NCBI GenBank assembly: GCA_965237635.1
Contig: CBDEFX010000002.1
Coordinates: 1,983,432 to 2,047,431, forward strand
Reading direction: 5' to 3'
Length of the DNA stretch: 64,000 nucleotides
DNA from: Dehalococcoidia bacterium
Lineage (GTDB): Bacteria; Chloroflexota; Dehalococcoidia; Lucifugimonadales; CAUZJF01
Shown here: one piece after another, positions 35,245 to 57,151 of the stretch
Position numbering within the stretch: the stretch's first letter is position 1
Layout of the letters: the number at the start of each line of letters is the position of its first letter
The notes under the pieces: generated by a model
The model's database searches: none
The model's input: the letters and a program-made list of their open reading frames with translations, nothing else
What the model was told of the DNA's origin: nothing
Program-made: the position numbers and the translations under genes

Positions 35245-35317
35245 TGCCCCCAACGGAATTCGAATCCGTGTCTGCGGCTTGAAAGGCCGCTGTCCTAGTC
35301 CACTAGACGATGGGGGC
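35245..35317 (-). tRNA. tRNA-Glu (anticodon UUC)
   Basis: The minus strand reads GCCCCCATCGTCTAGTGGACTAGGACAGCGGCCTTTCAAGCCGCAGACACGGATTCGAATTCCGTTGGGGGCA. There is a 7-bp acceptor stem, an anticodon stem GCGGC/GCCGC with loop CTTTCAA, and a T-arm GGATTCGAATCC-like segment. No CCA is encoded. Confidence 0.9.
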
Positions 35318-44016: not shown

Positions 44017-44160
44017 CCTTCACACCTTCCATCGAGTTGCCTCCAACTCTATAGAAGGCGGCGGGTGGTCCAGTTTTCAAGCGCCACTCCTCAACGCTCG
44101 ACTCCGCCTCACCGGTCCATTATTACTCCGCCCTTTACACGCAGGAGCGGCACCGTCCTG

Positions 44161-44592
44161 ATGAAGGCATACACAACCCACAAAGAGGAATCCGAGGTGT
44201 TCTTGTCCTACAAGCGCGCCGACCAAGCCACTGCATTGATCTTGGCCAAGGGCCTTGATCAAAAGGGAAGACGGGTATTCATAGATGTCCACGACGACAC
44301 GCTGGCGCCGGGCCAGGAGGACTTGGACGACGCACTGTTGACTGCTATATCCAAGTCAGACACGATGGTAGTGATCGTCTCGGACGAAACCCAATGGTCA
44401 TGGTGGGTGCCTTGGGAGATTGGTGTCTCGACGCCCTTCCGCAAACCGAAGGCCATGTACAAGCCACAGACCGACAAACCATTGCCGACCTATCTTAAGA
44501 AGTTGCGGAGGTTGCGGAATTCATCGGAGGCCAATTTGTTGGTGTTCGCCCACAGTAAGCTCCGGTTGCCCGGTTCGGGGCACAGTCGGTGA
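44161..44592 (+). CDS. TIR-domain protein (short, stand-alone)
   Basis: 143 aa from ATG 44161. EVFLSYKRAD (beta-A FxSY), DTMVVIVSDETQWSWWVPWEIG (W..E with a candidate catalytic Glu). The track N-terminal extension to 43924 lies in IS21 DNA. Confidence 0.75.
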   Translation: MKAYTTHKEESEVFLSYKRADQATALILAKGLDQKGRRVFIDVHDDTLAPGQEDLDDALLTAISKSDTMVVIVSDETQWSWWVPWEIGVSTPFRKPKAMYKPQTDKPLPTYLKKLRRLRNSSEANLLVFAHSKLRLPGSGHSR

Positions 44593-44654
44593 CCGGATGC
44601 GTCGCGGCCGTCGGACCGCCAGACTTCAGATAGCAGCACTTCTATGAGAGGCGC

Positions 44655-45185
44655 ATGACAATGCCAAAGCTGGTCAACGTAAAGCTAGATCTGAAGTTGC
44701 CGGGAATCGGAGGGGTTGCCGGAACGTGGGAACCGGACGAATCCGAAGTGAGGGCAGCCTGGGAGCTGTATGTGGAAATGGCGACTCGGACTCCACTCGG
44801 TAGCTTCTCAACCCAAGAGGGGTCTCTGCGAGAAGCCCTGAACTCCATCTACTCGTTGTTCGACACCACAAGAGGCATCTTGAGGAAGTATGGACCAGGC
44901 GTGGCGCGGCCAAAGAGCGGCCATGAGATGTCCTTTGGGTACCTGGCTGTCTCGATGCTTAATCTGGTACTCCGTCCGCTTCTCACGGAGTGGCACCCCA
45001 AGCTTCGGAGCTGGGAACGAGACAATTCACACCTAGACGAAATCGAATGGGAGGAACGCAACGATTTCCTCAACGCGCTCAATGAAATCAGCGGTCAGCT
45101 TCGTCAGTACGCTGGTCTGTTCGCCGAAGTCGCAGATGTACCCGAACTGACAGAGAGTGGAGATGCGACGACAACAACGACATAA
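44655..45185 (+). CDS. Hypothetical helical protein between two TIR-type genes
   Basis: 176 aa with no TM segment. AAWELYVEMATRTPLG...LREALNSIYSLFDTTRGILRKYG... I recognise no family. Its 3' end overlaps the next ORF. Confidence 0.55.
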   Translation: MTMPKLVNVKLDLKLPGIGGVAGTWEPDESEVRAAWELYVEMATRTPLGSFSTQEGSLREALNSIYSLFDTTRGILRKYGPGVARPKSGHEMSFGYLAVSMLNLVLRPLLTEWHPKLRSWERDNSHLDEIEWEERNDFLNALNEISGQLRQYAGLFAEVADVPELTESGDATTTTT

Positions 45186-45717
45186 GGTATTCGTTAGCTA
45201 CCATCACGAGAACGACCAAGGGAGTCGTAACCGGTTCGAGAGACTGTTCGCCGAGGTATACGACATAACGGATTCGCGATCAGTAAAGATAGGCGCCATC
45301 CCCAACGGATTGACCCTCGATGAAATCAGCCGCCGTATCCGCGACGACTACCTAAGTGACTCTACAGTGACCGTGGTTCTCATAGGGAAAGATACATGGC
45401 GGAGGAAGCACGTCGACTGGGGAATCGCCGCAACGCTTCGCGGCACCGACGCCAATCCGAGATCAGGTCTGCTTGGCATTCTCCTGCCTACACACGCTTC
45501 CTACAATAGAGAAGACTACGATCCGTACACGATTCCACCACGACTCCACTACAACGTAGAATGTGGCTTTGCCGATTTGTATTCTTGGAGCGAATCGCCC
45601 GACGATGTGGCCGGCTGGGTACACAGGGCCTACAGGCGCAGAAGCACAGTCATTCCGGATAACTCCTCCGTCAGGTTCGCAAAGAACAGGAAGGGTCCAC
45701 GGTGGTACCTTCATTAA
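45163..45717 (+). CDS. DUF1863 / ThsB-type TIR-like domain protein
   Basis: HKVFVSYHHENDQ and TVTVVLIGKDTWRRKHVDWGIAATL fit the MTH538/ThsB-like pattern. The usual W-x-E glutamate position reads W-G-I. The start is ATG 45163 or GTG 45157. Confidence 0.65.
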   Translation: MRRQQRHKVFVSYHHENDQGSRNRFERLFAEVYDITDSRSVKIGAIPNGLTLDEISRRIRDDYLSDSTVTVVLIGKDTWRRKHVDWGIAATLRGTDANPRSGLLGILLPTHASYNREDYDPYTIPPRLHYNVECGFADLYSWSESPDDVAGWVHRAYRRRSTVIPDNSSVRFAKNRKGPRWYLH

Positions 45718-45785: not shown

Positions 45786-46454
45786 TTATCCCCAGTCCAG
45801 GGGAGCACCAGAATAACCGCCCTCCTGAAGACTTCTGAGCCACTCGACGAACTGAACGATAGTTCCTCCTGAGAAGCTATTGCGGTGTCCAATTCCCGCA
45901 TGAACGATGTTCGTCCCACCGAATGTAGGGATCTTCTGTCCCTGACCGCCGAAATAGACGAAGTCGTCACTGACGAGAACGCGGTTCACGGACGTATCGC
46001 GGCGGACGTTGTGAATATTGAGCGCGCCATCATGCAAGCTGTGGTGCGAGTCGGCCTGAAGCCATGAGCCACTGATCTCGTCCCACTGGTATATGTTGTC
46101 TCCAAAGGCTCGCATCTTGCTCGCGTGTAGGTTGGGACGCTTGTTGTTGAAACGAGGGTCATTCCAATAGTCATTAAACGACACGGCCTCACTGACCCGC
46201 ATGGCATAGACAAGGTGTCCGTCTCGCTGCCTAGTTTTTGAACCCGTGCCAACCACCCAGTCTCCAATCGTGGCTGCTTGCCTGATTTTTGGCTTACAGG
46301 TAGCTAGTGTGCACAAGCCGTAGAAGGGATTCGGAGCGAATCCAAAATCCCTGGCTACTACGTATGAGTGCAGTCTCGTCACTGGGGAGTCTATCCACAG
46401 GAGTGTCTCGGGATAGGCCGACGATCCCGGCTGGATCCATCCTGGTTGAACCAA
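45786..46454 (-). CDS. Nmad2-like (nucleotide-modification-associated domain 2) protein
   Basis: LHSYVVARDFGFAPNPFYGLCTLATCKPKIRQAATIGDWVVGTGS matches my memory of the Nmad2 N-terminal signature. The ATG at 46454 overlaps the upstream TIR gene by 64 nt. An alternative GTG at 46382 lies 9 nt after that gene's stop. Confidence 0.55.
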   Translation of the reverse strand: MVQPGWIQPGSSAYPETLLWIDSPVTRLHSYVVARDFGFAPNPFYGLCTLATCKPKIRQAATIGDWVVGTGSKTRQRDGHLVYAMRVSEAVSFNDYWNDPRFNNKRPNLHASKMRAFGDNIYQWDEISGSWLQADSHHSLHDGALNIHNVRRDTSVNRVLVSDDFVYFGGQGQKIPTFGGTNIVHAGIGHRNSFSGGTIVQFVEWLRSLQEGGYSGAPLDWG

Positions 46455-46867
46455 CCATCAGAGTCGCCGTTTATGGTATCAATGATGCTCTCACCATGCC
46501 AACCAACAATTGCGTCACCATATCGGTCAAGTGCCTCTGGCAGTTCACAGTCCTTGGAACCCCATTCCCATACGCCTACAATCCTCTTCCCAAGTTTGTG
46601 GGCCTGCTCGATTTCCCAGTCCACCCAATCGCTATCCTTAGTGTCTGGGGACACATACACGACGAGCACACCGGCCCACCTGATATGAGGTGCCAGTATC
46701 TGGCTCTTGATGTAGTCCGGGTTGCTGGCTGCGTTCGGTTTGTCCGAAGTAATGGATGAGTCACGCAATGTCATGCCATGCTTCTGGGTTAAGTCCTTAA
46801 TGCGAGTAAGGCCCTCATCATCCTCATGTATGTGACTGATAAAGACATTCCGCGTATCGTCCTCCAT
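46391..46867 (-). CDS. TIR-domain protein embedded in the nucleotide-modification operon
   Basis: RNVFISHIHEDDEGLTRIKDL, VLVVYVSPDTKDSDWVDWEIEQAHKLGKRIVGV (W..E Glu present). The ATG lies 3 nt after the ThyA-like stop and AAGGAG lies upstream. Confidence 0.7.
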   Translation of the reverse strand: MEDDTRNVFISHIHEDDEGLTRIKDLTQKHGMTLRDSSITSDKPNAASNPDYIKSQILAPHIRWAGVLVVYVSPDTKDSDWVDWEIEQAHKLGKRIVGVWEWGSKDCELPEALDRYGDAIVGWHGESIIDTINGDSDGWFNQDGSSRDRRPIPRHSCG

Positions 46868-46870
46868 CGT

Positions 46871-47948
46871 CTACCACTCCTTTCCCAGACGTTGTCGACG
46901 TCTACTAGCTTGACTAGGGCTGTCACTGGATCTACTCGTCTGCCTCTGTCTGCTCGAGCACCATCTGGACCAAAGCTGTTGATAAACGGGATTGGTGCAG
47001 CGAGACATGATGCGGGCTGCGGAGTCCGTCAGCCCACGGCGGCGTAGAGCTTCTGCCGTGAGGACCGCCGCCATGTTCCTGTAAGCCTGGGGTGCGCTGT
47101 CCCAGGAGGCCAACCCTTCGAGCGTATCCGGATCGGCCTTCGGGTCGATCATTTGCTCAACGCGGCTCTCCAGCTCCTTGAATACCCGATCTGACACCTG
47201 CCTAGTCAGGGTCAGGCAGTCGTCATTCGGCGAAACACTCGGCAGACCCCTTGAAGCCATCACGTTCTCCCAGCGACGGTCGTACACGTGCAGGCTGTCG
47301 CTTATCTGGGTGTACGAACCGCACTCGACTCCCAGCCACCCTGCCAGTATCTCCTGCATGGCTGTGAATTGAACAAAGTTGTGAGGAACTCCCAGGAACA
47401 TGTCATTGCTGCGGATGACCTGAAGCCACTCCAGCTTTCCGTCACGAAGCTTCGGCATCGCAACTACGTTGCACGGGGTGTCACAATCAGCTGGAGTCCC
47501 GTCATATGCAGGCAGGTCTAGTCGGGAATCCCAAATCTGCAGAACCACCTGCCTCGTGTTCGGATCGTGTTCAAGTACCTGGTAGGCCCGCTCAAGCTGG
47601 TCGATGCCAAGGTGGTGACGCAGGCGATTAGCCATAGGCTCCATGAAGCTCCGGGCCGGGCCCAACGAAGTCGTGATACCGGCTGTTCCAATATTCCAAG
47701 AATGCCAGGTCACGTCGTCCGGTCATAATCCAGACGACCTCCGCCAACGCAAAGGCCAAGTTCAACGGTGGCTCCCTGGAAACGACCCACCGCTGGCGCG
47801 GGTCTGCGATTGAGATTGCGACATGAAGAATTTCTCTGGTCGGACCTCCTCTGCTGCTTTGGCTGCCCACCCCTTCCGACCGTCGAAATGCGTCAGCCGC
47901 CTGCTGCCACACGTCATCGGCCGATTGCCCCTGAAAGGCCGAAATCAC
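46871..47948 (-). pseudogene. Thymidylate synthase (ThyA)-family pyrimidine methylase/hydroxymethylase homologue with a 1-nt frameshift near 47630
   Basis: N-terminal ORF (47948-47628): TREILHVAISIADPRQRW...LNLAFALAEVVWIMTGRRDL..LEYW......GPGPELHGAYG*. The second frame reads NRLRHHLGIDQLERAYQVLEHDPNTRQVVLQIWD....DTPCNVVAM.KLRDGKLEWLQVIRSNDMFLGVPHNFVQFTAMQEILAGWLG...G.Y.QISDSLHVY. Deleting one T in ggc-t-aat gives GAYGNRLR, the family consensus. Confidence 0.75.
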
Positions 47949-49642
47949 TCTGACCCTCCTTGAAGAGGAAGCAGATGGTTAATGCCCCACTTGGGAGGGT
48001 ACCAATACCCTATGGGTTTCGGTGAGGGACGATACAGCTGCTTGATACGAGTGCGCTTGCTGAGCCCCTTGATCTCTGGATGTTTCACACGCGCGTACTT
48101 TGACACCTCGCAGAAGAGGTTTTGGCAGTCAATAAGCTGTAGCCGCCGCCCTCCCAGCGTACGGAACTTCAGTCCCAGCCTCTCGAACTCACGCTCTTGG
48201 CTCTCCGTAACCAATTTGATGATATCGGCATCGTTCAGGCCGCTCTGATCTGTGAAACACTTGCGAATGCCATCCAGGGCTCCTGGCCCGGGCACAACGA
48301 ACTCCATCTCGGAGAAATCGGTAAATTCGCTGTAGTTGAGGTCCGTAGCGAACTGATAAGCAAGGAAGTTACCTATGGTCGGGTATGACCGGAGCACATC
48401 GAAGGCCTCGGCCATGGTCGACGCCTCAGTGATCCTTTGCGGCACCTCATCCTCCATCATCCGTTCCAGTAGCATCAGGTGATTGCGATGCTTCTGAGAT
48501 TGGCCGAACGAACTCCTGCCTGACGGCATCATGTAGGCCGCCGAGTAGATTCTTGTGCCGGCCGCAAGAGCCTCCGTCAGCACACGGTCGTACTTCTGGA
48601 AGGAGTAGTCGGCATGACTGATCGTCGTCAGCTGACCGCGCAACATCTCCCACGTATCGATTTTGTTGAAAAGCTTGAAGAGGATGGTGCGGAAGAACAC
48701 TTCCTCCGGCGACGGGTCCCCATCGTATATAACGTGCCTGATGAGGTACTGGCTCACGCGATCCGATGCCCGATAGGCATTGGTGAACTTATGCTTGGCG
48801 AGGATAGGGTCGGTCGTCCACGGAGCGGGAAGTCCTTCGAGCTTGCGGAAGAACACCTCCTGACGCTCGACAGCAAAGCGCCAGTAGCTCTCATACACGA
48901 CCGTGGTTCCAGCCGACGCTAGCGTTGTGAAGGCCGATGTAGCCTTTGTGGGAGGAGGGAGAAGGGGCAACTGGTCACTAGGTCCCCGCAGCGGGCTGGC
49001 CAAGTCGGCAGGAGCGTCATGTCGCACGTCAGGAATTAGGCCTTGGAGACAGGCGAGTAGCTGACTGAGAGAGTCTTCCACCGCTGAATCATTCTGTATT
49101 CGGTGGATAGGGTACTGGCCCTTCTCGTTGTCTGAAAGTATCTGGTAGCCCTCTCGCAGCGGTGTGCAGTCCTCACCATCAAATGCCTCCCCGGACCGGT
49201 CGACCAAGAAGAGGGCATCGGGCTTGATGCCACGCCAATGTAGACGCTCTGCCTGAATCAAGGCGTCCAAAGTGGGGCTCTCGACCGACGCTGCCCGACC
49301 GTAGACCCAGGTCGACCACCAAAAGCGGTCGAGGATCACCCAACGACCTTCACGGAGCGCCGGTAGGATACGCTGTTCTATCTCATCCAGATGTGCGGCG
49401 ATGTGTAGGGCTTGCAGGCTCGTGCCTGTTATCGCCTTTAGCCCATACGAAGCCGGGGCGTGATGCACGTCATAGACCAGTCGGCCAACGGTCCCCTCAT
49501 CCTTACCTGGAAACGATAGGTGGTCGCATATGAGGCCCATTGCCTTGAGCTTGTCGGCGAGGGCTCGTGAAAGCGTGGACTTTCCGACGCCGTCAGGTCC
49601 CTCAAAGACGATTAGCCTTCTTGAATTCATCACCTCAGGCAT
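47945..49642 (-). CDS. Fusion of a dNMP (thymidylate)-kinase-like P-loop domain and an aGPT-pyrophosphorylase-like (DNA base hypermodification) domain
   Basis: N-terminus LIVFEGPDGVGKSTLSRALADKL...VILDRFWWSTWVYG is Tmk-like. C-terminal ~350 aa: FTNAYRASDRVSQYLIRHVIY, FRTILFKLFNKIDTWE, YPTIGNFLAYQFATDLNY, QNLFCEVSKY. I recognise these as the alpha-glutamyl/putrescinyl-thymine pyrophosphorylase family, with moderate certainty. The stop overlaps the ThyA-like GTG (GTGA). The start is chosen at ATG 49642, after GGGAGAG. Confidence 0.6.
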   Translation of the reverse strand: MPEVMNSRRLIVFEGPDGVGKSTLSRALADKLKAMGLICDHLSFPGKDEGTVGRLVYDVHHAPASYGLKAITGTSLQALHIAAHLDEIEQRILPALREGRWVILDRFWWSTWVYGRAASVESPTLDALIQAERLHWRGIKPDALFLVDRSGEAFDGEDCTPLREGYQILSDNEKGQYPIHRIQNDSAVEDSLSQLLACLQGLIPDVRHDAPADLASPLRGPSDQLPLLPPPTKATSAFTTLASAGTTVVYESYWRFAVERQEVFFRKLEGLPAPWTTDPILAKHKFTNAYRASDRVSQYLIRHVIYDGDPSPEEVFFRTILFKLFNKIDTWEMLRGQLTTISHADYSFQKYDRVLTEALAAGTRIYSAAYMMPSGRSSFGQSQKHRNHLMLLERMMEDEVPQRITEASTMAEAFDVLRSYPTIGNFLAYQFATDLNYSEFTDFSEMEFVVPGPGALDGIRKCFTDQSGLNDADIIKLVTESQEREFERLGLKFRTLGGRRLQLIDCQNLFCEVSKYARVKHPEIKGLSKRTRIKQLYRPSPKPIGYWYPPKWGINHLLPLQGGSE

Positions 49643-49840
49643 GCACGCTCTCCCTTGAATCAGTTCCTGCCTGATCCTCAAAGTCCAATAGGTCCGACTC
49701 CACCCGGCGGGCCGGTCTAGCCGAGTCCCTCTTGGCTTTGCGCTGAGTTCCTACCTGCAGGGCGACTCCGGTGAGGTTTGCGATACAGAAGGAGGAGTTG
49801 CCTAACTCGACAGCACACCACCCGACTCGCCCCGGCACAG

Positions 49841-51214
49841 CTACCTCGAGGCTCCAAGATATCGCTGCACATCTGCTTCATCCCCTCTGCCTCTTATCCC
49901 TGAGCAGTGGTAGCAGTCAGGGTCGGGGTTTTTGGTTGGAATGGTGACGACGCCTCTCTCACCATAGTATTTCAGGACGTTCTTTGGTTGCCGCGGTACG
50001 CCGGTAGTCGCCAGCATGAACTCCGTCACTCCGAGAGAGGCGATTACGCCATTGATGGACACCACTGAAGGACCAGCTTCCCCCAAGTCATCAATGGGAA
50101 CCCCGTAAATGGCCGCGTGGTCCTTTCTCTGTTCGTCGCTCATCAAATCGATTCGGGCCGCTTGAAGGTCGAGTTCGTCGTAACAGACCAGGCAACCGGT
50201 GTCGTCGCCTACTACACACACCCTACCTCCATACTTTGTACCCCCCTCGACGATATCTGACGCCAGGTCAAAGTAGGGCTTGGCATAGGCCAGACATAGT
50301 TCATTTAGAATCAGACGTGACCCATCGTTGTCCATACACCCGAACACATAGTCAGCCTCCATGATGGCATCAAAGGCAGGTTGACCTCGCAGGCATTCAG
50401 CAATGGTGACGACCTCTACCTCCGGATTGATTTCACCAGCAAGCCGTCTCCCGAGATCAACCTTTGGCATGCCAGGAACGAGATCGTCATGCCTTAGACC
50501 AACGTAACGATTGCGATTTGTCTCGTCGACCTCTTCGGAGTCGATCAAAACCAGCCTCCCCATGCCGAGGAGGGCAAGCTGCTGAACGACGTGAGTCCCC
50601 AGGCCACCAACTCCAACAACCGCAACGCTGGCGGCCCTTAGAGAATCCTGCCCACTCTGACCGAAGAAGCGAACGTTGCGATCGTACCTCTCGCTATCCA
50701 CGACAAGGGATGACAGCCTGGTGGGCTGGAACGCTCTGTCTCCCACGACGATGCCGTCCAGGTGCTGAGGTTTCTCGGGATCCATCATCCACGCAAGGGC
50801 ATCGAAGTCGGTGTGCGTGACCACCACGGCGAAATAGGGTCTCTTCCTGAGACGCCACCGAACATGAGGAACGAACTCCCGTAGCCCGCGCCGGTCCAAT
50901 GGGGAGAATCTTACTGGCTGGGGACCTAAGTGGGAGTGGAATTCGACTATCGAAGCGCCAAGGTCGTGAGCTCGCTTGATGACACTGGCCCGGAATTCGT
51001 CATTAAGCTCTAGGTGGTACCAACTATTCTCAACTAAGCCGTCTGGAGGGACGGGATACCATTCGACATGCTCGTAGACTTGGGTATCGTCGGTGTGAAA
51101 CCCTGGCACGACAAACATGAACCCCGCAGACTCTGACTCCTCGTTGTTCTCAAGGAGATGTGCCAAGACCTCCTCGTAGACGCTCCTAGGGACATGGAGA
51201 AGAACTCGGCCCAT
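49841..51214 (-). CDS. JAB/MPN (JAMM) peptidase fused to a ThiF/E1-like adenylyltransferase
   Basis: N-terminus ESAGFMF ... EFHSHLGPQPVRFSPLDRR is a JAMM-like E...HxH...S..D. C-terminus VAVVGVGGLGTHVVQQLALLGMGRLVLIDSEEVDETNRNRY, FGCMDNDGSR, plus CLVC and CYHC pairs. The ATG lies 1 nt after the E2 stop (TAGCATG). Confidence 0.8.
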   Translation of the reverse strand: MGRVLLHVPRSVYEEVLAHLLENNEESESAGFMFVVPGFHTDDTQVYEHVEWYPVPPDGLVENSWYHLELNDEFRASVIKRAHDLGASIVEFHSHLGPQPVRFSPLDRRGLREFVPHVRWRLRKRPYFAVVVTHTDFDALAWMMDPEKPQHLDGIVVGDRAFQPTRLSSLVVDSERYDRNVRFFGQSGQDSLRAASVAVVGVGGLGTHVVQQLALLGMGRLVLIDSEEVDETNRNRYVGLRHDDLVPGMPKVDLGRRLAGEINPEVEVVTIAECLRGQPAFDAIMEADYVFGCMDNDGSRLILNELCLAYAKPYFDLASDIVEGGTKYGGRVCVVGDDTGCLVCYDELDLQAARIDLMSDEQRKDHAAIYGVPIDDLGEAGPSVVSINGVIASLGVTEFMLATTGVPRQPKNVLKYYGERGVVTIPTKNPDPDCYHCSGIRGRGDEADVQRYLGASR

Positions 51215-51215
51215 G

Positions 51216-51605
51216 CTAAGCCCCCTCCTGGAACCTGTCGGCGAAGCCTCTTGCCCACTGAAGAAGATTGGATCCCCTTGGGGTGTCCGCCGTTGGTTTC
51301 CATACTATCGGGGTCCACGAAAAGAAGCCCCACGTTTCTCCGAATGGAGGTTGATTGGAGGCCGGGTCCGTGTAGTTGTTTGGAGTAGCTCCTTCGAACT
51401 GTATCCCCGACGGAACGAAGAATCCGTACAGTGGTGCCGCGGGATACCCATCACTGACTTGGAACGCCACATCAGTTGCCGCTCTGTTCCATCCTTCGGG
51501 AAGTGGATACGACGGCAGGCATACCCAGCGCCCGTCCTCTTGGTACACGACGTCTGGGAATACCTGCCGGATGAGCGTCAGCTCGGCCTCAATACGCTCC
51601 GTCAC
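51216..51605 (-). CDS. Prokaryotic E2/UBC-like protein (Prok-E2_E-like)
   Basis: 130 aa from GTG 51605. TERIEAELTLIRQVFPDVVYQEDGRWVCLPSYPLPEGWNRAATDVAFQVSDGYPAAPLYGFFVP matches the pattern of E2/UBC proteins that accompany multiubiquitin + E1 + JAB genes. The long track extension to 51938 overlaps the Ubl gene in another frame. Confidence 0.6.
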   Translation of the reverse strand: MTERIEAELTLIRQVFPDVVYQEDGRWVCLPSYPLPEGWNRAATDVAFQVSDGYPAAPLYGFFVPSGIQFEGATPNNYTDPASNQPPFGETWGFFSWTPIVWKPTADTPRGSNLLQWARGFADRFQEGA

Positions 51606-51610
51606 GACGC

Positions 51611-51853
51611 CTAGCCCCGCTGGAATCTGATCTTCTTCGAGAAGCCTATTCCCGGCCTCAGCTTTACTACCTCGCCTGGCTCCAAGTTTCGTTCGGTGCC
51701 GTCCTCCAGATCTATCAGTACCACGCCTGCTGAGACATCCCAGCCGCCGAGTGCGGCTACCTCTTCCGTGGTAATAGTGTCCTTCTCCCAGGGCTTGAAC
51801 GCACCCTCGATGTCTACTTCGTACTTGGCGTCGCGTACGGTCTGCTCGCTCAT
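51611..51853 (-). CDS. Ubiquitin-like (single multiubiquitin/beta-grasp-type domain) protein ending in Gly
   Basis: 80 aa, YEVDIEGAFKPWEKDTITTEEVAALGGWD...VVLIDLEDGTERNLEPGEVVKLRPGIGFSKKIRFQRG*. A strong RBS (AAGGAGA) lies 9 nt upstream. The C-terminal residue before the stop is Gly. Confidence 0.6.
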   Translation of the reverse strand: MSEQTVRDAKYEVDIEGAFKPWEKDTITTEEVAALGGWDVSAGVVLIDLEDGTERNLEPGEVVKLRPGIGFSKKIRFQRG

Positions 51854-51963
51854 GATTAGCTATCTCCTTCTGCCCTAGATCGGGGCCATGACTTGGGATC
51901 CTTGTGGTAAGGATACGAAGGGGCGCTCGCGATGTCAAGCGGTACTGCTCTAGAGCTTAAACG

Positions 51964-52026: not shown

Positions 52027-52422
52027 ATGAACCTTGGCACGTACCTAAGGCAGGTAAGGGAAGAGCGTCAACTCTCTCTCAGAGACGTAGAGCGCCTTGC
52101 CAAAGAGAGGGAACTCAGCGCAGACGTGAGTAGTGGATATCTCAGCATGTTGGAGCGAGATGCAGTTAAGCAGCCGGCACCTAGGGTCCTGCACACCCTT
52201 GCTGAGATCTATGAAGTCGACTACATCGATCTGATGCGTAAGGCAACTTACATTCCCGACGATGCCGATGTGAAGGGCGCCTCAGCAACTAAGGCCGCAT
52301 TCCGGGGTGTTTCTCAACTTTCAGAGGAACAACGCCAGCGCGTTCAGCGCATGATCGATTTTGAGCTGAGTGAGGGACGTGCCGCCAGGCACCGGCGCGG
52401 TTCAAGGGATGCTAATGGGTAG
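52027..52422 (+). CDS. XRE-family HTH transcriptional regulator
   Basis: LGTYLRQVREERQLSLRDVERLAKE....VSSGYLSMLERD. RBS AGAGGTGA. Divergent from the Ubl operon. Confidence 0.8.
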   Translation: MNLGTYLRQVREERQLSLRDVERLAKERELSADVSSGYLSMLERDAVKQPAPRVLHTLAEIYEVDYIDLMRKATYIPDDADVKGASATKAAFRGVSQLSEEQRQRVQRMIDFELSEGRAARHRRGSRDANG

Positions 52423-53293
52423 CACAGAAGAATCTAGTCGCCTATCAATCAGAAGCGAAGCCGAGCGTTTCCTTGCGATGCACGGATTTTCCGCGCCTCC
52501 GCTACCTTCAGATCAAGCTCTGGCTGCACGAAAGCTGGCCGTGTCTCAATTCTCCCTCGACGATTTGCTGCTGAAGGCCAATCTGCCACCCGAGGACAAC
52601 AAGAAGATTCAGGCCATGCTTGACGCCGACGCAAGAACCGTCGCATTCAAGAGAGACCTCCCTGAGAAAAAGAAGGATTGGGGTTCACTTCACGAGGTCG
52701 CTCACGAGTTCATCCCGTGGCAGAGAGATCTCCTGTACTACTGTCCTCTCCTTTGGCTTCCGGTGCACTTACAAGCCCAATTGGAAGCTGAGGCCGACCT
52801 TTTCGCCGCAGAGGCCTTCTTCTTTGGCAGCCAGTTTCACAAGCAAGCCTATTCCGGTGACCTCAGCCTCAGCACCGCCATTGAACTAGCGGCTGATGTT
52901 TACGGAACCTCTTTCCATGCAACGTTTGCGCATTACGTGGAAGAGAGCCCTTTGCCCCGCTGTCTACTAGTCTGGAAACCAAAGGGTGGGAACGGGTCAC
53001 TAGGATTAGCTGTAGGGCTTGAGTTGCATTACTACATTAAGTCCAAAAGCTTTCTCTGGCATATCGAACCTGGACAGATAGCGGACCCAGATGATGCTGT
53101 GAGTAAAGTGTTCATGGAGTCAGATCTCGGGGTCGTTAAGCACGAAATGGTGTTTCAGAGCGAGTCTGGTGAAGAGAACGTGACGGACGCTGAATCCTTC
53201 TCAAATTCATACAACACGTTTACGCTGATATCGCAGCCCGTGCGCAGACGTACGCAATTGGCCCTCGCGAAAGCCGCCAAAGCTGGACGCTAG
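52409..53293 (+). CDS. ImmA/IrrE-family (DUF955) zinc metallopeptidase
   Basis: HExxH motif in GSLHEVAHEFIPWQ. Its start overlaps the XRE stop. Length ~294 aa. Confidence 0.7.
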   Translation: MLMGSTEESSRLSIRSEAERFLAMHGFSAPPLPSDQALAARKLAVSQFSLDDLLLKANLPPEDNKKIQAMLDADARTVAFKRDLPEKKKDWGSLHEVAHEFIPWQRDLLYYCPLLWLPVHLQAQLEAEADLFAAEAFFFGSQFHKQAYSGDLSLSTAIELAADVYGTSFHATFAHYVEESPLPRCLLVWKPKGGNGSLGLAVGLELHYYIKSKSFLWHIEPGQIADPDDAVSKVFMESDLGVVKHEMVFQSESGEENVTDAESFSNSYNTFTLISQPVRRRTQLALAKAAKAGR

Positions 53294-53697
53294 AGAGCCA
53301 GGCAATCCACATCAGAGGGTAGCCTCATTGGCATGGAGGCCGGTATGGACGCCCTGCAGACTCTGTCTTTCGACAGTGCTACGTGAACAGAGCCGTCACA
53401 CTCACCACGACCGTCGCTCAGTCGGTAACCACGCCAGGTCGCTGCCGGCCCAGATCTGAAAGATGGCACTTCCTATTGTCCAAAGCCGGTTTCTGTAGTA
53501 CTGCCTACTGTCCAAGGCAGATTTGCAGAATCCCAAGCCATAATTCGAAGACGGTTCTGTCTATCGTCACAAAAGGCCCACCTGGGAAGGTTGGAATCGA
53601 TACCAGGGCTGCCGTGGCGAAACCACTTATCGATCCGCCCGACCTTTCGCTGTTGTATCCGAATCGCCCGCCCACGAGTATCGGGTCTTGGCAAGCT

Positions 53698-53860
53698 TGA
53701 TTCTCTCGTAAAAAGTCTGTGCAGGTCGAATTAGAACAACCGTACCCTTGCCTGGGTACAATATACAGTCTCTGTTCCGTGTCCTACCCCAACATACGGT
53801 AGCGCTCACATGTGCTAAAGCGCTGGAACTTCCTCAAAACGGGTTTTTACGAGGGAATCA
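53698..53860. mobile_element. MITE copy 1 (163 bp) with termini matching the nested IS1182/IS5-like element
   Basis: TGATTCTCTCGTAAAAAGTCTGT...GGGTTTTTACGAGGGAATCA. The right 20 nt are identical to the IS end at 43519-43538. It is flanked by AGCT (53694-97) and AGGT (53861-64). Confidence 0.8.
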
Positions 53861-53864
53861 AGGT

Positions 53865-54027
53865 TGATTCTCCCGTAAAAAGTCTGTGCAGGCCGAATTA
53901 GAACAAACGTACCCACGCCTGGGTACAATATATAGTCTCTGTTCCGTATACTACCCCAACATACGGCAGCGCTCAAATGTGCTAAATCGCTGGAACTTCC
54001 TCAAAGCGGGTTTTTGCGAGGGAATCA
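53865..54027. mobile_element. MITE copy 2 (163 bp), in direct tandem with copy 1
   Basis: TGATTCTCCCGTAAAAAGTCTGT...GGGTTTTTGCGAGGGAATCA. It is flanked by AGGT and AGCT (54028-31) and its interior is collinear with copy 1 apart from scattered substitutions. Confidence 0.8.
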
Positions 54028-54078: not shown

Positions 54079-54345
54079 ATGGACTCACGTAGACGGACGG
54101 AGGACTCTTACCCGGAGCTCTTCCCGAAGGACTATCCGGAGCGGCTGGAGAGGCTCGTAGAAGTCGCAGGGCTGACATGGGGGGAGTTCGCGGAGCGCCT
54201 CGGCGTCGAGAACGACCGCGTGACGTCATGGCGCAACGGTACGATCCCGACTGGCGGAGAGGTCTGGCACATCATGCGGCTGGCCTACTCCGTTCCCGGC
54301 GGCATGGAAGTGATGCTTCCAGAGGCCGCCGGGGGTGCGGAGTAG
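54079..54345 (+). CDS. Small HTH-like protein (XRE/antitoxin-like)
   Basis: 88 aa; LVEVAGLTWGEFAERLGVENDRVTSWRNGTIPTGGEVWHIMRLA looks like a helix-turn-helix. Confidence 0.45.
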   Translation: MDSRRRTEDSYPELFPKDYPERLERLVEVAGLTWGEFAERLGVENDRVTSWRNGTIPTGGEVWHIMRLAYSVPGGMEVMLPEAAGGAE

Positions 54346-54766
54346 CGATGTGAGCCGTACCTATTCCACTCTGGTCGCATCCAAATCGACGGCCCATGAG
54401 AACCGTACTTTTTTGTGTTGATTGGAAGACGGAGAACTCTACCTCGGTGCACAGTATGCGGATGGAATCGCCATTGAATCAACGGCTGAGATGGTCGCCG
54501 CCTGATGTCGTTTACACACCTATTGACGTAACCTCACTGATGCGGGTGAAGGATTGCTCGTGATTTCTGGAGTATGACGCTGGCGCGAGAGCTTCACCCG
54601 GCACTGTGGCCGGTCGGCGGAAGCCGTAAGAGTAACGGGATAGGAATGTATGCGACGTATGCGGGGCTGGTTTATTGCCGGAGACCGCCGCGAAGCGGCA
54701 AAATATAGGTTCAGAAGTATGTCTAGAGTAGTGCAACCGGTGAGAGATGATGAGAAGTGAAGTGAA

Positions 54767-55072
54767 GTGACCCCGGCGCAATCACAGGGAGAGGGAATCG
54801 TGGCGAGTCCACGCCGACCACGCGAAGAGACGGCGCGCCTCGGCAAGGAGCTGTACGAGCAGGTCATCCGCAGTCAGGTCGAAGCCGACCACCACGGGGA
54901 GATCGTCGCGATCGACGTGGACAGCGGGGGCTGGGCAGTCGCTGGCGGTAAGATTGCTGCGGTGGAGAGGCTGCGGGAGATGAGACCAGATGCCGTCAAC
55001 GTGTTGTGTGAGCGCGTGGTGTATAGGGCGCTTCGCAGCTTCGGGGCACGTTCCTTGCGGAGGACGGATTGA
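54767..55072 (+). CDS. Small hypothetical protein of the type found upstream of retropepsin-like proteases
   Basis: 101 aa with a GTG start. HHGEIVAIDVDSGGWAVAG....AVERLREMRPDAVNVLCERVVY. Its stop overlaps the next ORF's start (ATGA-type coupling). Confidence 0.4.
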   Translation: MTPAQSQGEGIVASPRRPREETARLGKELYEQVIRSQVEADHHGEIVAIDVDSGGWAVAGGKIAAVERLREMRPDAVNVLCERVVYRALRSFGARSLRRTD

Positions 55073-55305
55073 TTGAGGGTGAGGTGAACAACGCCTATGA
55101 GGCGGTCGTGGCCCTTTCCCTGCAAGGCCCCGAGCGGCAAGCCCAGAACATCGAGGCCGTCATAGACATCGGCTACAGTGGCTTCCTGACCTTGCCAACT
55201 GCGCTGGTGACGGAGTTGGGGCTGATGGATTGCAGCCCCACACTGCTCGCACTACAGTCAACTTCAGAGAGCAAGCATCTACTGACAGGGGTGACTGGTG
55301 GCTAG
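55069..55305 (+). pseudogene. Retropepsin-like (clan AA) aspartyl protease homologue, apparently truncated and degenerate
   Basis: AVVALSLQGPERQAQNIEAVIDIGYSGFLTLPTALVTELGL fits the bacterial clan AA family up to the flap region, but the DTG reads DIG and homology ends ~50 residues early. It overlaps the next gene's start. Confidence 0.4.
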
Positions 55306-57151
55306 TTTTCTTTCGAGCCTGTTTGGCAACAAGAAAGATGCGATACCCTCGGAGGTCGCTGGGTTGCAGCAACTATCTCCGGAATCGCGCGAGAAGTCAG
55401 GGCGGCGAGAACCGCCAGCGCAACTCGACTGGTCGCGCGCCGAGTACGTCCCAATGCCGCCTTCTCCCCCGACGTGGGAAGTGGATGGTCGCGACGAGTT
55501 TCACCGTGAGTACAACGATCCGACGATTGGACCGGTGTTTCAAGCAGGATTCAACAACCAGCACAGCAAAGTCTTGAGGCTGGCAGCTAGTCTTTCTGCT
55601 GAGCAACGACGGGGCAGCGTCGGAGATGTGATCGCGAAGGCGTACCGCAAGCAAATCATCCAGCGCATGAAGGCTGGTCAGTTGGCAGCAGCGGCGAAGC
55701 AGTGTGATGACATGCTTGAGATGGTTCCCAGGCATGTCCGAGATGTCGACCGGCGACGGTTCAACCGCATCCTCAAGCAGATGGACAAGGAGGGTAAGAA
55801 ACACAACTACACCCCTGCTGATGTGGCCAGCGCGTCCTCGCAGGCTTTGTTCACGGTCGCGGACGGGTACGGATGGGTCGTCTCGGGAGAGCGAAAGCTG
55901 GAGGGTGAACAGCGACCCAATCCGGCTTTCGAGACCGCTGCTATGGATGGATCAGGATCGTGGCTCCTTGACCGCTCCGGGTCTAGCGTTGGCCAGCTAG
56001 AAGTCAAAAGCGTGCTTCGGCGGCTGGACCTACTCGACCGCACCGTTGGCGAGAAGCCTCTCAACCACGATGTTTACCGGACTGGCGCTGGCTCCACCGG
56101 GTCCCACATCGCGATCATGGACTCGACCGGGATACTGCACATCTACGACGCAGGGTTGAACGTCGTCGCTGAAACGAATCTCCAAGGGGATCCACGCGTA
56201 GTGGATCACTTCCGGACCATCGACACAAACTATTGGGGCGAGTTCATGACGCAGGTTCGAGCCGTGGACGTTGCGTCCGAAGGGGACCGATACGTCTTCA
56301 CGCTCGCGGATGAGGCATGGTGCTGCACGACATCTGGCCGCACCCTATGGGGCGTGGCAATGCCCCTCAAGGAAGGTTGGAAGCGGGTCGTAGGTAGGAC
56401 CGAACGCTTTGGTGTAGGACGTGAGGTTGAGGAGGCCTTGCGTCTCTTTGGACTTTCCCTTCCGGTAAGTCCAGCCGACATCAAGAAAAAGTACCGGGTG
56501 CTGGCGATGGCCCATCATCCTGACCGCGATGCAGACAATCTCAGAGCAGAAGAGACGATGAAGGCGTTGAACGGGGCCTTCGAGGTCCTCACCGGCGTTG
56601 ATCCGAACACTCTCGGACTCGAGGAATCCGACATCACTTACTTCGCTCGCACGGCCCCCGATCACGTTGTCGAAGTGGACGGATTACGGCTGGAAATTAC
56701 CATGACAGGTGGTACACCTCAGGACTGGGTCTACGCCGCCAGCTTCGCCGCTGCCGACGGCTGCGCTTACGTGGCGACATACTCTGGCAAGGTCATTCTC
56801 CTTTCTCGGGAGGGCCAGCCGCTCATTGTCTACGACATCGGAACCTGTCCGACTGAGATCGTTGACGTCGATCAATACACGTACTTTCTGACACCCACGA
56901 GGCTCTACGTCGTTGAGGAAAGGACGAAGCTAGCAGCCTTCCTCGACGTCTTCCAGCAAGGACGACTTCTCGTGTCGCAACCGGGTTTCGGATTGCTCAC
57001 GAGCAAAAGGCTCCAGTGGTTCACTGCTTCGGGCACGAAAGTGGGCGAAGTGCTAACTCGTGATCCCATCCGAACATTTCGTAAGGTCAAGGGCGGCGCA
57101 GTTTTGCAGACGCGTCAACATCAGGCAGAGCTACAGGGTCCAGGGCTTTAG
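55298..57151 (+). CDS. Large J-domain (DnaJ-like, HPD) protein with beta-propeller-like repeats on both sides
   Basis: J domain PADIKKKYRVLAMAHHPDRDADNLRAEETMKALNGAFEVLTG near residue ~420. The flanking strands look blade-like (HIAIMDSTGILHIYDAG, RYVFTLADEAWCCTTSGRTLWGV, CAYVATYSGKVILLSREGQP, YTYFLTPTRLYVVEE, GFGLLTSKRLQWFTASG). GTG start. Confidence 0.6.
   Translation: MASFLSSLFGNKKDAIPSEVAGLQQLSPESREKSGRREPPAQLDWSRAEYVPMPPSPPTWEVDGRDEFHREYNDPTIGPVFQAGFNNQHSKVLRLAASLSAEQRRGSVGDVIAKAYRKQIIQRMKAGQLAAAAKQCDDMLEMVPRHVRDVDRRRFNRILKQMDKEGKKHNYTPADVASASSQALFTVADGYGWVVSGERKLEGEQRPNPAFETAAMDGSGSWLLDRSGSSVGQLEVKSVLRRLDLLDRTVGEKPLNHDVYRTGAGSTGSHIAIMDSTGILHIYDAGLNVVAETNLQGDPRVVDHFRTIDTNYWGEFMTQVRAVDVASEGDRYVFTLADEAWCCTTSGRTLWGVAMPLKEGWKRVVGRTERFGVGREVEEALRLFGLSLPVSPADIKKKYRVLAMAHHPDRDADNLRAEETMKALNGAFEVLTGVDPNTLGLEESDITYFARTAPDHVVEVDGLRLEITMTGGTPQDWVYAASFAAADGCAYVATYSGKVILLSREGQPLIVYDIGTCPTEIVDVDQYTYFLTPTRLYVVEERTKLAAFLDVFQQGRLLVSQPGFGLLTSKRLQWFTASGTKVGEVLTRDPIRTFRKVKGGAVLQTRQHQAELQGPGL

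What the first reader, a model, noticed from the sequence alone, without database searches (positions are those of the whole stretch)
49841..51853. Complete bacterial ubiquitin-like conjugation module: Ubl ending in Gly, E2-like, fused JAB-E1
The module has an 80-aa beta-grasp/multiubiquitin-type protein whose last residue is Gly (...RFQRG-stop), so it needs no processing. A 130-aa E2/UBC-like protein follows 5 nt downstream. A 457-aa protein carries an N-terminal JAMM peptidase (E..., HSH...S..D) and a C-terminal ThiF/E1 domain (GVGGLG, DNDGSR, two CxxC pairs) and starts 1 nt after the E2 stop. All catalytic signatures I can read are intact.

This resembles the E1/E2/JAB/Ubl operons predicted by comparative genomics and the experimentally shown Bil-type anti-phage systems. 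It differs in having JAB and E1 in one polypeptide and a minimal single-domain Ubl. The E2 contains only one Cys (RWVCLP), and its position should be checked against the UBC active site.
Basis: partly seen in the sequence, partly recalled or inferred. Interest (0 to 1): 0.7.

Follow-up and report, generated by a model that had tools for sequence, protein, structure and literature searches.

The report
Cysteine-free bacterial ubiquitin-like (Bub-type) conjugation operon
This three-gene operon is a real bacterial ubiquitin-like tagging system, but it belongs to the already described "Bub/6E" family, which works without catalytic cysteines, and it is a variant that lacks that family's usual extra protease.

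Summary
The three minus-strand ORFs exist exactly as described. They are an 80-aa Ubl ending in Arg-Gly-stop, a 129-aa E2-like protein and a 457-aa JAB-E1 fusion.

The interpretation needs correcting. For each protein, the best match among solved structures (by sequence profile or by predicted fold) is a Citrobacter Bub protein (BubA, BubB, BubCD). Bub is the 6E operon class predicted in 2006 and characterised biochemically in 2024. The JAB-E1 fusion is a hallmark of that family, not a novelty.

The E2's single Cys29 is not conserved and lies in a beta-strand. The E1 has no cysteine in its crossover loop. The family's invariant residues are E2 Ser96, which aligns with the BubB catalytic Ser, and E1 Tyr370 in the crossover loop. 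This fits Bub's oxyester relay.

A divergent pair of regulator genes resembling CapH and CapP sits upstream, and insertion sequences flank the island.

Differences from published Type I Bub:
- The Ubl and E2 are separate genes.
- No BubE/DUF6527 protease is found in the window or in about 35 related loci.
- The E2 has an invariant Tyr60 where BubB has Asp, and no accessory His.
- The E1 keeps two Zn-type CxxC pairs.

Verdict: a new variant of a known kind. Its biological role and targets are unknown. Interest is moderate.

The parts
51611..51853 (-). BubA-like ubiquitin-like protein. 80 aa with a single beta-grasp (Multi_ubiq) domain, made in mature form ending R79-G80-stop (Gly80 codon 51616-51614).
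   Evidence: Pfam Multi_ubiq 33.5 bits, above the cut-off. AF2 model pLDDT 79. Its top 9 Foldseek PDB hits are all bacterial multi-ubiquitin/BubA structures, including BubA(155-229) in 9ea8_B, TM 0.65-0.69. 111 of 120 homologues end ...RG-stop and 9 carry 2-3 extra residues.
51216..51605 (-). BubB-like E2 with no catalytic cysteine, 129 aa. Candidate nucleophile is Ser96 (codon 51320-51318). Invariant Tyr60 (51428-51426) occupies the position of BubB Asp299. Cys29 (51521-51519) is not conserved.
   Evidence: Pfam Prok-E2_E 25.6 bits, marginal. The family profile's best PDB hit is Citrobacter BubB, E 1.8e-6. AF2 model pLDDT 88; its only significant Foldseek hit is 9eae_C BubB, TM 0.67. Conservation is shown. 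hhalign against the D-S-x-H class gives probability 100% and aligns S96 with that class's invariant Ser.
49841..51214 (-). BubCD-like JAB/JAMM peptidase fused to a ThiF-type E1, 457 aa.

- JAB domain, about aa 1-165 (51214-50720): E28, H93, H95, S104, D107.
- E1 domain, about aa 170-457: GxGxxG at 201-206, R236, D316.
- Zn-type cysteine pairs: C341/C344 and C434/C437.
- Crossover-loop Tyr370 (codon 50107-50105).
   Evidence: ThiF 134 bits. The family profile's best PDB hit is Citrobacter BubCD, E 4e-30, covering both domains. Y370-G371 are invariant and there is no conserved Cys in the crossover loop across 23 homologues.
51910..51938 (-). Promoter-like site for the Ubl operon: TTGACA, 17-nt spacer, TATCCT.
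   Evidence: Consensus scan, 10 of 12 matches. TTGACA and the core of the -10 element are conserved in four related loci, including the divergent L007. Function is inferred, not shown.
51947..51956 (.). Perfect 10-bp palindrome GCTCTAGAGC just upstream of the -35 element. Candidate operator for the CapH-like repressor.
   Evidence: Read from the sequence. Conserved in the window, L001 and L002. Inference only.
52027..52422 (+). CapH-like XRE-family HTH regulator, 131 aa, transcribed divergently from the Ubl operon.
   Evidence: Pfam HTH_31/HTH_19. PADLOC capH E 1.1e-8. An HTH gene lies upstream in 16 of 35 related loci by BLAST clustering.
52370..53293 (+). CapP-like metallopeptidase, about 304-307 aa, with an HEVAH zinc motif. 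Overlaps the end of the HTH gene.
   Evidence: PADLOC capP E 2.1e-9. The HExxH motif is read from the translation. Orthologues sit in the same position in L001, L002 and L007. M78-type peptidases sit upstream in L040/L041, and farther upstream in L003.

Best explanation
This is a Bub-type ('6E') bacterial ubiquitination-like operon on an IS-flanked island, probably in a Dehalococcoidia (Chloroflexota) genome.

**Proposed mechanism**
1. The divergent CapH-like repressor keeps the operon off. On DNA damage or phage infection the CapP-like metallopeptidase inactivates it. This step is inferred from what is published for CapH/CapP.
2. The E1 domain of the JAB-E1 protein adenylates the exposed C-terminal Gly80 of the 80-aa Ubl.
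3. The Ubl is passed to the invariant crossover-loop Tyr370 as an oxyester.
4. It then moves to the invariant Ser96 of the cysteine-free E2, again as an oxyester.
5. Finally it is attached to a lysine of a still unknown target.

**Role of the JAB domain**
The Ubl needs no processing here and no BubE protease is present. The catalytically intact JAB domain therefore most likely removes Ubl from conjugates. In relatives it would also trim short C-terminal tails or Ubl-E2 fusions.

**Biological role**
Presumed to be anti-phage defence or a stress response. This is not demonstrated even for the characterised Bub systems.
For: **Best PDB match is a Citrobacter Bub protein for all three proteins**
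- Ubl to BubA and other multi-ubiquitin structures.
- E2 to BubB, by sequence profile (E 1.8e-6) and by fold (the only significant hit, TM 0.67).
- JAB-E1 profile to BubCD, E 4e-30, over both domains. E28, H93, H95 and D107 align to BubCD E28, H91, H93 and D104, and R236 aligns to R227.

**Catalytic residues**
- E1: Y370-G371 are invariant and no Cys is conserved in the crossover loop.
- E2: no conserved Cys.
- S96 is nearly invariant (139 of 151 sequences). It aligns with the invariant Ser of the D...S-x-H class, which matches the BubB D299/S333/H335 pattern.

**Ubl C-terminus**
- R79-G80 are invariant. 111 of 120 homologues stop right after Gly.
- In Ubl-E2 fusions the junction is ...KRG followed directly by the E2 domain.

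**Context**
- CapH/CapP-like pair upstream. The Bub paper reports that 31% of Bub operons carry this pair.
- Gene order Ubl-E2-JAB-E1 is conserved in 35 loci, many in mobile contexts such as T4SS genes, integrases and transposases.
Against: - No biochemistry exists for this clade.
- The accessory residues thought to activate the BubB serine are absent. Asp299 is replaced by an invariant Tyr60, and His335 by a variable residue.
- Our Tyr370 sits two residues C-terminal to the column of BubCD Tyr370 in the profile alignment: AIYGV versus GYITGV.
- HMMER's local alignment placed BubB S333 on our G93 rather than S96. L-INS-i and hhalign resolve this in favour of S96.
- BubE, stated to be present in all published Bub operons, is missing.
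- The Bub authors found no phage protection for any Bub operon, so the defence role is conjecture.
Confidence: 0.7

Rival explanations
1. Canonical cysteine-thioester cascade of the Bil or eukaryotic type. Ubl~Cys(E1) would pass to Ubl~Cys29(E2) and then to a target lysine.
For: Overall Ubl/E2/JAB/E1 gene content. The E2 does contain one Cys.
Against: - Cys29 is R or L in most relatives.
- It lies in predicted beta-strand 27-34.
- No Cys is conserved in the E1 crossover loop. The conserved cysteines are two CxxC pairs typical of the ThiF/MoeB zinc site.
- The best structural relatives are the cysteine-free Bub proteins.
Confidence: 0.03
2. The E2-like protein is a non-catalytic UEV/RWD-like adaptor, as Iyer et al. 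predicted in 2006. The E1 would transfer the Ubl directly to targets or to itself from the adenylate or the Tyr370 ester. The E2-like protein would only bind the Ubl or choose substrates.
For: - There is no catalytic Cys.
- The Asp and His that accompany the BubB serine are missing in this clade.
- The 2006 analysis called these domains inactive.
- A UEV-like structure (VPS37A) appears among weak Foldseek hits.
Against: - S96 is nearly invariant across 151 sequences from both catalytic classes, and it aligns with the serine shown to be required in Citrobacter BubB.
- Other residues around it are equally invariant (W92, W97, Y60), which suggests an active site rather than only a binding surface.
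Confidence: 0.17
3. A sulfur-carrier or peptide-modification system of the ThiS/ThiF, MoaD/MoeB or MccB type rather than protein conjugation.
For: By single-sequence search the E1 domain scores slightly higher against ThiF/MoeB than against BubCD. It also retains the ThiF/MoeB-type CxxC zinc site.
Against: - No ThiG/ThiH/MoaE, rhodanese or cysteine desulfurase genes occur in the window or in related loci.
- All NCBIfam ThiF/MoeB equivalog scores are far below their cut-offs.
- The operon always includes an E2-fold protein and a JAB peptidase.
- With a family profile, BubCD outranks ThiF/MoeB.
Confidence: 0.03
4. The Ubl module is functionally coupled to the adjacent DNA thymidine-hypermodification-like and TIR genes. 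For example, it might tag or regulate those enzymes as one larger system.
For: The 5-hmdU DNA kinase gene follows on the same strand only about 160 nt downstream. The same neighbours occur in the closest relative, L001.
Against: The neighbours are found only in the window and in L001, whose E2 is 91% identical. All other related loci have unrelated downstream genes, and clustering found no conserved downstream partner.
Confidence: 0.05

Closest known systems
Type I Bub operon (BubAB + BubCD + BubE; Citrobacter sp. RHBSTW-00271; Ye, Gong, Chambers & Corbett, bioRxiv 10.1101/2024.11.21.623953; PDB 9ea4, 9ea8, 9eae, 9eav)
   Same: - Multi-ubiquitin-type beta-grasp Ubl with a reactive C-terminal Gly.
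- Diverged UBC-fold E2 without Cys but with an invariant Ser at the same alignment column.
- JAB/JAMM-E1 fusion of the same length (457 vs 458 aa), with the same JAMM residues and adenylation Arg.
- No crossover-loop Cys, and an invariant crossover-loop Tyr.
- Frequent CapH+CapP regulators and mobile-element context.
   Different: - The Ubl and E2 are separate genes, so no JAB processing is needed.
- There is no BubE/DUF6527 serine protease.
- The E2 has an invariant Tyr where BubB has Asp299, and no His at +2 from the Ser.
- The Tyr lies directly before the conserved Gly (IYG), not two residues earlier (YITG).
- The E1 has two CxxC pairs that Citrobacter BubCD lacks in the alignment.
- The Ubl has one beta-grasp domain instead of three.
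'6e' operon class of Iyer, Burroughs & Aravind 2006 (PMC1779556): polyUbl, Cys-less E2/RWD-like domain, JAB-E1 fusion, metal-binding protein Y
   Same: Same domain set and order. That paper already notes standalone E2-like genes lying between the Ubl and JAB-E1 genes, a solo Ubl in one species, and frequent carriage on mobile elements.
   Different: The metal-binding protein Y (now called BubE/DUF6527) is absent. The 2006 prediction that the E2 is inactive has since been overturned for Bub.
Deinococcus sp. AB2017081 plasmid operon (NZ_CP140099.1, locus L043)
   Same: Separate multiubiquitin, E2/UBC and JAB-ThiF genes in the same order, with an upstream XRE regulator. The RefSeq names show how such genes are routinely annotated.
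   Different: It carries a DUF6527 gene and a phosphotransferase downstream. Its E2 has the D...S-W-H triad, and its E1 loop reads PYIVG as in Citrobacter. It is only 30% identical to the window's E2.
Bil (BilABCD) anti-phage system
   Same: Ubl + E2 + JAB + E1 gene content. Conjugation of a Ubl is itself the presumed effector step.
   Different: Bil uses catalytic cysteines in E1 and E2. [quoted passage not shown] None of the three proteins here has a Bil protein among its listed PDB matches.

Membership tests
Type I Bub (Ye et al. 2024) | Beta-grasp (multi-ubiquitin) Ubl with a conserved C-terminal Gly | tested here: met
   Pfam Multi_ubiq is above its cut-off. The fold model matches BubA structures. 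R79-G80 are invariant.
Type I Bub (Ye et al. 2024) | Ubl encoded as a fusion to the E2 (BubAB), cleaved by the JAB domain | tested here: not met
   A stop codon and a 5-nt spacer lie between the Ubl and E2 genes. The genes are fused in only 7 of 35 related loci.
Type I Bub (Ye et al. 2024) | JAB/JAMM peptidase fused N-terminally to a homodimeric-type E1 (BubCD) | tested here: met
   A single 457-aa ORF. The profile aligns to BubCD residues 10-411 with the JAMM residues in register. Dimerisation was not tested.
Type I Bub (Ye et al. 2024) | E1 crossover loop lacks Cys and carries an invariant Tyr | tested here: met
   Y370 is invariant in 23 homologues and there is no conserved Cys between C344 and G381. 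The Tyr is offset by 2 residues from the BubCD Y370 column.
Type I Bub (Ye et al. 2024) | E2 lacks Cys and has an invariant Ser at the catalytic position | tested here: met
   S96 is present in 139 of 151 sequences. It aligns with the invariant Ser of the D-S-x-H class at hhalign probability 100% and with BubB S333 in the L-INS-i alignment. HMMER's local alignment differed.
Type I Bub (Ye et al. 2024) | E2 Ser accompanied by an invariant His (+2) and Asp (D299) | tested here: not met
   Tyr60 replaces the Asp in 123 of 151 sequences. The +2 position is variable (S/H/A/Q/T).
Type I Bub (Ye et al. 2024) | BubE (DUF6527/PF20137) serine protease in the operon | tested here: not met
   - No Pfam hit among the neighbouring window ORFs tested.
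- None in the precomputed Pfam annotation of 12 related loci.
- No conserved downstream gene in 35 loci.
- tblastn with a Deinococcus DUF6527 protein finds nothing in the window or loci.
Type I Bub (Ye et al. 2024) | Ubl~Tyr and Ubl~Ser oxyester intermediates | not testable with these tools
   Requires biochemistry.
6e operon class (Iyer et al. 2006) | Ubl + Cys-less E2/RWD-like domain + JAB-E1 fusion | tested here: met
6e operon class (Iyer et al. 2006) | Associated metal-binding protein 'Y' | tested here: not met
   Same evidence as for BubE.
Bil (BilABCD) | Catalytic Cys in the E2 and a Cys-bearing mobile domain in a tandem-adenylation-domain E1 | tested here: not met
   There is no conserved Cys in the E2. 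The E1 has a single adenylation domain with no inserted Cys domain.
Type II CBASS Cap2/Cap3 | E2-E1 fusion acting on a CD-NTase, with a separate JAB (Cap3) | tested here: not met
   PADLOC E1-E2 models hit only the adenylation domain. No CD-NTase was found in the neighbourhood.
ThiF/MoeB sulfur-carrier activation | Partner biosynthetic genes (ThiG/ThiH, MoaE) or a rhodanese domain, and equivalog-level similarity | tested here: not met
   NCBIfam ThiF/MoeB scores of 78-90 bits fall far below cut-offs of 266-450. No partner genes occur in the window or loci.
CapH/CapP regulatory pair | Small XRE HTH repressor next to a Zn-metallopeptidase, divergent from the regulated operon | tested here: met
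   PADLOC capH 1.1e-8 and capP 2.1e-9. HEVAH motif. Conserved position in L001, L002 and L007. Cleavage and DNA-damage sensing were not tested.

The most novel reading that the evidence does not exclude
This clade may be a third, BubE-less type of Bub pathway.
- It has at least 35 loci across Chloroflexota, Acidobacteriota, Proteobacteria, Nitrospirota and others.
- The E2 active site would use a Tyr60/Ser96 pair instead of Asp/Ser/His.
- The JAB domain would have taken over deconjugation from BubE.

If Tyr60 activates Ser96, or itself carries the Ubl, this would be a further chemical solution for cysteine-free ubiquitin-like transfer. It would also show that the published DUF6527-anchored definition captures only part of the family.
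Probability: 0.4. Interest if true: 0.55.

Novelty: new variant of a known kind. Interest (0 to 1): 0.4.

Why it matters
Bub systems are the only ubiquitin-like conjugation pathways known to run on oxyester (Tyr/Ser) rather than thioester intermediates. Their targets and biological role are still unknown.

This minimal variant has a single-domain, pre-matured Ubl and a standalone E2. It lacks BubE and has a different set of residues around the catalytic serine.
- It would be a convenient system for reconstitution.
- It could be used to test which active-site features are really required for oxyester transfer.
- It shows that DUF6527-anchored searches miss a large share of the family.

It does not by itself open a new kind of biology.

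Tried and rejected
- **Window protein look-up.** The window's JAB-E1 protein is not on record in the contig index, so homologues were used for context instead.
- **Source gene call.** The source genome's own gene call appears to be only the 290-aa E1 part (P0160). I kept the 457-aa reading for three reasons: the ORF is continuous, it has a strong Shine-Dalgarno, and many homologues are full-length fusions.
- **Genome scan.** The scan with the broad E2 alignment A1 failed because no stretch was conserved enough. A tighter alignment, A5, worked.
- **Conflicting E2 alignments.**
  - HMMER's local alignment of the E2 profile to BubB put the catalytic S333 on our G93. I rejected this after L-INS-i and hhalign.
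  - Both were run with bridging D...S-x-H sequences, including a BubB from a DUF6527-bearing operon. Both placed the invariant Ser on S96.
- **Other libraries.** PADLOC has no models that hit the Ubl or E2. NCBIfam has none for the Ubl, E2, CapH-like or CapP-like proteins.
- **Phage and plasmid records.** No phage record encodes a relative of the E2. Only 3 plasmids do.
- **Possible fourth gene.** The 67-aa ORF between the E1 and the kinase (49838..49635), called as a gene in L001, was considered as a fourth component. Window-versus-L001 differences fall 12/15/5 by codon position, against 26/32/78 for the E1 gene, so it is probably not coding.
- **Possible BubE substitute.** The 162-aa gene downstream of the E1 in L002 has no Pfam hit and is not conserved elsewhere.
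- **Model coordinates.** AF2 coordinates are not exposed, so the Tyr60-Ser96 distance could not be measured.
Full report
**1. The observation**

The three ORFs are on the minus strand, exactly as reported.
- The Ubl gene runs from ATG 51853 to TAG 51613-51611. It encodes 80 aa ending RFQRG.
- A GTG at 51605, five bases after that stop, opens a 129-aa ORF that ends at 51216.
- One base later, ATG 51214 opens a 457-aa ORF that ends at 49841.

Pfam gives the following:
- Multi_ubiq 33.5 bits (cut-off 24.5).
- Prok-E2_E 25.6 bits (cut-off 25, marginal).
- ThiF 134 bits.
- Prok-JAB 18.4 bits (below the cut-off).

**2. What the proteins are**

*E2-like protein*
- It has 114 close homologues. A profile search of 1.84 billion representative proteins finds 583 clusters at E <= 0.001.
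- Cys29 is not conserved. It is R or L in most relatives, and no cysteine is conserved anywhere in the family.
- The conserved positions include R4, E8, W27, W39, P55, Y60, P87, F88, W92, S96, W97, W102, G111, N113 and R124.
- An AF2 model (pLDDT 88, pTM 0.83) places C29 inside strand 27-34. S96 lies in the long segment between the fourth core strand and the C-terminal helix, which is where UBC enzymes carry their active site.
- Foldseek against the PDB gives one significant hit, Citrobacter BubB (9eae_C, E 5.8e-4, TM 0.67). Canonical E2s appear only as weak partial hits.
- The sequence profile also hits BubB best (E 1.8e-6).

*JAB-E1 protein*
- In 23 homologues, Y370-G371 in the crossover loop are invariant, and no cysteine is conserved there.
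- The invariant cysteines are the pairs C341/C344 and C434/C437, arranged as in the ThiF/MoeB zinc site.
- The family profile's best PDB hit is Citrobacter BubCD (E 4e-30). The alignment runs from residue 7 to 410 across both domains. E28, H93, H95 and D107 align to BubCD E28, H91, H93 and D104, and R236 aligns to the adenylation residue R227.

*Ubl*
- The AF2 model (pLDDT 79) has its nine best PDB hits among bacterial multi-ubiquitin/BubA structures. These include the BubA domain bound to BubCD.
- R79-G80 are invariant.
- 111 of 120 homologues stop immediately after the Gly. Nine have 2-3 extra residues.

**3. Literature**

- Ye, Gong, Chambers and Corbett (bioRxiv 10.1101/2024.11.21.623953) describe 'Bub' operons, formerly called '6E/DUF6527'.
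- Neither the Bub E1 nor the Bub E2 has a catalytic cysteine.
- The Ubl is adenylated, passed to crossover-loop Tyr370 of BubCD, and then to Ser333 of BubB. Ser333 is accompanied by His335 and Asp299. The Ubl then goes to lysines.
- 31% of Bub operons carry CapH+CapP. No phage protection has been shown.
- Iyer, Burroughs and Aravind (2006, PMC1779556) had already listed class '6e': polyUbl, a Cys-less E2/RWD-like domain, a JAB-E1 fusion and a metal-binding protein. They noted that the E2-like domain sometimes occurs as a standalone gene between the Ubl and JAB-E1 genes, and that one species has a solo Ubl.
- The JAB-E1 fusion and the minimal Ubl are therefore not new.

**4. Mapping the catalytic residues**

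Among the 150 best representative E2 relatives there are two classes.
- 123 of the 151 aligned sequences, including the window's protein, have Tyr at position 60, a Ser at 96 and a variable residue at 98.
- 23 have Asp at 60. In those sequences the motif reads S-x-H at 96-98, which is the pattern of BubB D299/S333/H335.

Three alignments bear on the Ser assignment.
- An L-INS-i alignment including the Citrobacter BubB fragment puts S333 on our S96, H335 on T98 and D299 on Y60.
- hhalign between our clade and the D-S-x-H class gives probability 100% and E 2e-46, with Y60 on D, S96 on the invariant S and T98 on the invariant H. That class included a Deinococcus BubB from an operon annotated with a DUF6527 gene.
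- HMMER's earlier local alignment placed S333 on G93. I consider that a local misalignment driven by the flanking tryptophans.

For the E1, our invariant Tyr lies in the same loop segment but two residues C-terminal to the BubCD Y370 column: AIYGV versus GYITGV. The Deinococcus protein reads PYIVG, like Citrobacter.

**5. Context and family architecture**

- Eight metagenomic loci and 29 genome loci were compared. After removing duplicates, that left 35 loci.
- The order is always Ubl, E2, JAB, E1.
- The Ubl and E2 are fused in 7 loci, with the junction ...KRG followed directly by the E2 domain.
- The JAB and E1 are fused mainly in the Dehalococcoidia clade closest to the window.
- The JAMM motif and the YG...GPSV loop are present in nearly all loci.
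- Clustering of all neighbouring ORFs finds only upstream partners. These are an HTH gene in 16 loci, with metallopeptidase-like partners next to it. No downstream gene is conserved.
- DUF6527 was not found by any test:
  - Pfam scans of window neighbours.
  - Precomputed Pfam annotation of related loci.
  - tblastn with a bona fide DUF6527 protein.
- In the window, the divergent genes at 52027-52422 and 52370-53293 match PADLOC capH and capP. The second carries HEVAH.
- The intergenic region has a conserved TTGACA-17-TATCCT promoter-like site and a perfect palindrome, GCTCTAGAGC, just upstream.
- The closest relatives are Dehalococcoidia MAGs (79% E2 identity). Source names for homologues are Chloroflexota and Caldilineaceae.
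- The island at 44-57 kb has lower GC than its flanks. It lies between a nested IS21/DDE insertion and a DDE_Tnp_1_4 transposase.

**6. Mechanism**

The best-supported reading is a Bub-type, cysteine-free Ubl conjugation pathway under CapH/CapP-like control.
- Shown here: the fold and profile relationships, the conservation of Gly80, Tyr370 and Ser96, intact JAMM and adenylation residues, and the conserved regulator pair.
- Inferred from Citrobacter biochemistry: adenylation, Tyr and Ser oxyesters, and transfer to lysine.
- Inferred from context: the JAB domain acts as a deconjugase. The Ubl needs no maturation in 111 of 120 homologues, yet the JAMM site is kept and BubE is missing.
- In relatives with short tails or Ubl-E2 fusions, the JAB domain would also mature the Ubl, as shown for BubCD.
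- The target and the biological role are unknown.

**7. Rivals**

- The canonical thioester cascade is effectively excluded by the non-conservation and position of Cys29 and by the Cys-free crossover loop.
- A non-catalytic, UEV-like E2 remains possible because the Asp/His pair is missing. The near-invariance of S96 argues against it.
- Sulfur-carrier chemistry has no support from gene context or from NCBIfam cut-offs.
- Coupling to the neighbouring 5-hmdU-kinase and TIR genes is unlikely. That neighbourhood is shared only with the nearest relative.

**8. Novelty and score**

- The system belongs to a known kind (6E/Bub), but it fails three features of published Type I Bub: the BubAB fusion, BubE, and the Asp/His accessory residues.
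- It also adds a ThiF-like zinc site to the E1.
- I classify it as a new variant of a known kind.
- A specialist would find it useful rather than surprising, so I score interest at 0.4.

Noticed in passing
window 45786-49681 (minus strand) and 43924-45717 (plus strand): Next to the Ubl operon lies a cluster of genes.
- A 5-hmdU DNA kinase (HMUDK_hel, 375 bits) fused to a dTMP-kinase-like P-loop.
- A thymidylate-synthase-like gene.
- Nmad2.
- Three TIR/ThsB-like proteins.
- A 176-aa unknown.

This gene set is known to me mainly from phage thymidine hypermodification, yet here it sits in a cellular genome beside TIR proteins. The same set occurs in L001 only.
   Followed up: partly
window about 47629 (gene 47948..46871, minus strand): The thymidylate-synthase-like gene is split into 106-aa and 280-aa ORFs by a 1-nt insertion, relative to the intact 342-aa orthologue in L001:11658-12686 (84% DNA identity). 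This is either a frameshift pseudogene or an assembly error.
   Followed up: yes
window 53692-54025: Two tandem copies of a 167-nt unit (92% identical), each bounded by 22-23-nt inverted repeats. They lie in the gap between the CapP-like gene and the next ORF. No Rfam family matches at gathering score. Nature unknown; possibly a MITE-like element or a structured RNA.
   Followed up: partly
window 39753-44016 and 57547-58872: A nested insertion: an IS21-type element (istB at 39753-40652, istA in two pieces at 40532-41626 and 43525-44016) is interrupted by a DDE_Tnp_1_6 transposase gene (41746-43488). A DDE_Tnp_1_4 transposase lies on the other side of the island. The flanks are 65-67% GC and the island 53-59%.
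   Followed up: partly
window 49635-49838 (minus strand): A 67-aa ORF between the E1 stop and the kinase gene is called as a gene in the related contig L001. Window-versus-L001 differences fall 12/15/5 by codon position, against 26/32/78 for the E1 gene, so it is probably not protein-coding.
   Followed up: yes
window 49841-51214; protein P0160: The protein collection holds a 290-aa product that is 100% identical to the E1 part only, and it is flagged as the window's own. The source annotation therefore seems to miss the JAB domain, although the ORF is continuous and has a strong Shine-Dalgarno at 51214.
   Followed up: partly
window 30978-31193 and 35245-35317 (minus strand): A T-box leader (118 bits) and a tRNA gene, both passing Rfam gathering thresholds. 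These look like ordinary chromosomal features upstream of the island.
   Followed up: no
window 55298-57151 (plus strand): A 617-aa protein whose only recognisable part is a DnaJ (J) domain at residues 385-432. It is preceded by three small unannotated ORFs (54079-55305).
   Followed up: no
L043 (Deinococcus sp. AB2017081 plasmid NZ_CP140099.1, 91550-95444): An annotated Bub-like operon with separate multiubiquitin and E2 genes, a JAB-ThiF gene, a 482-aa 'phosphotransferase' and a DUF6527 gene. The Bub paper states that Type I operons always fuse the Ubl to the E2, so this arrangement is not covered there, and it carries an extra kinase-like gene.
   Followed up: partly
L038/L039 and L040/L041: Other relatives without BubE. 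One has a Ubl-E2 fusion of the D-S-x-H class plus a JAB-E1 fusion (L038). Another has a 367-aa multi-Ubl-E2 fusion of the Tyr class with separate JAB and E1 genes and an M78 peptidase + HTH pair (L040). The absence of BubE therefore does not track the E2 active-site class strictly.
   Followed up: partly
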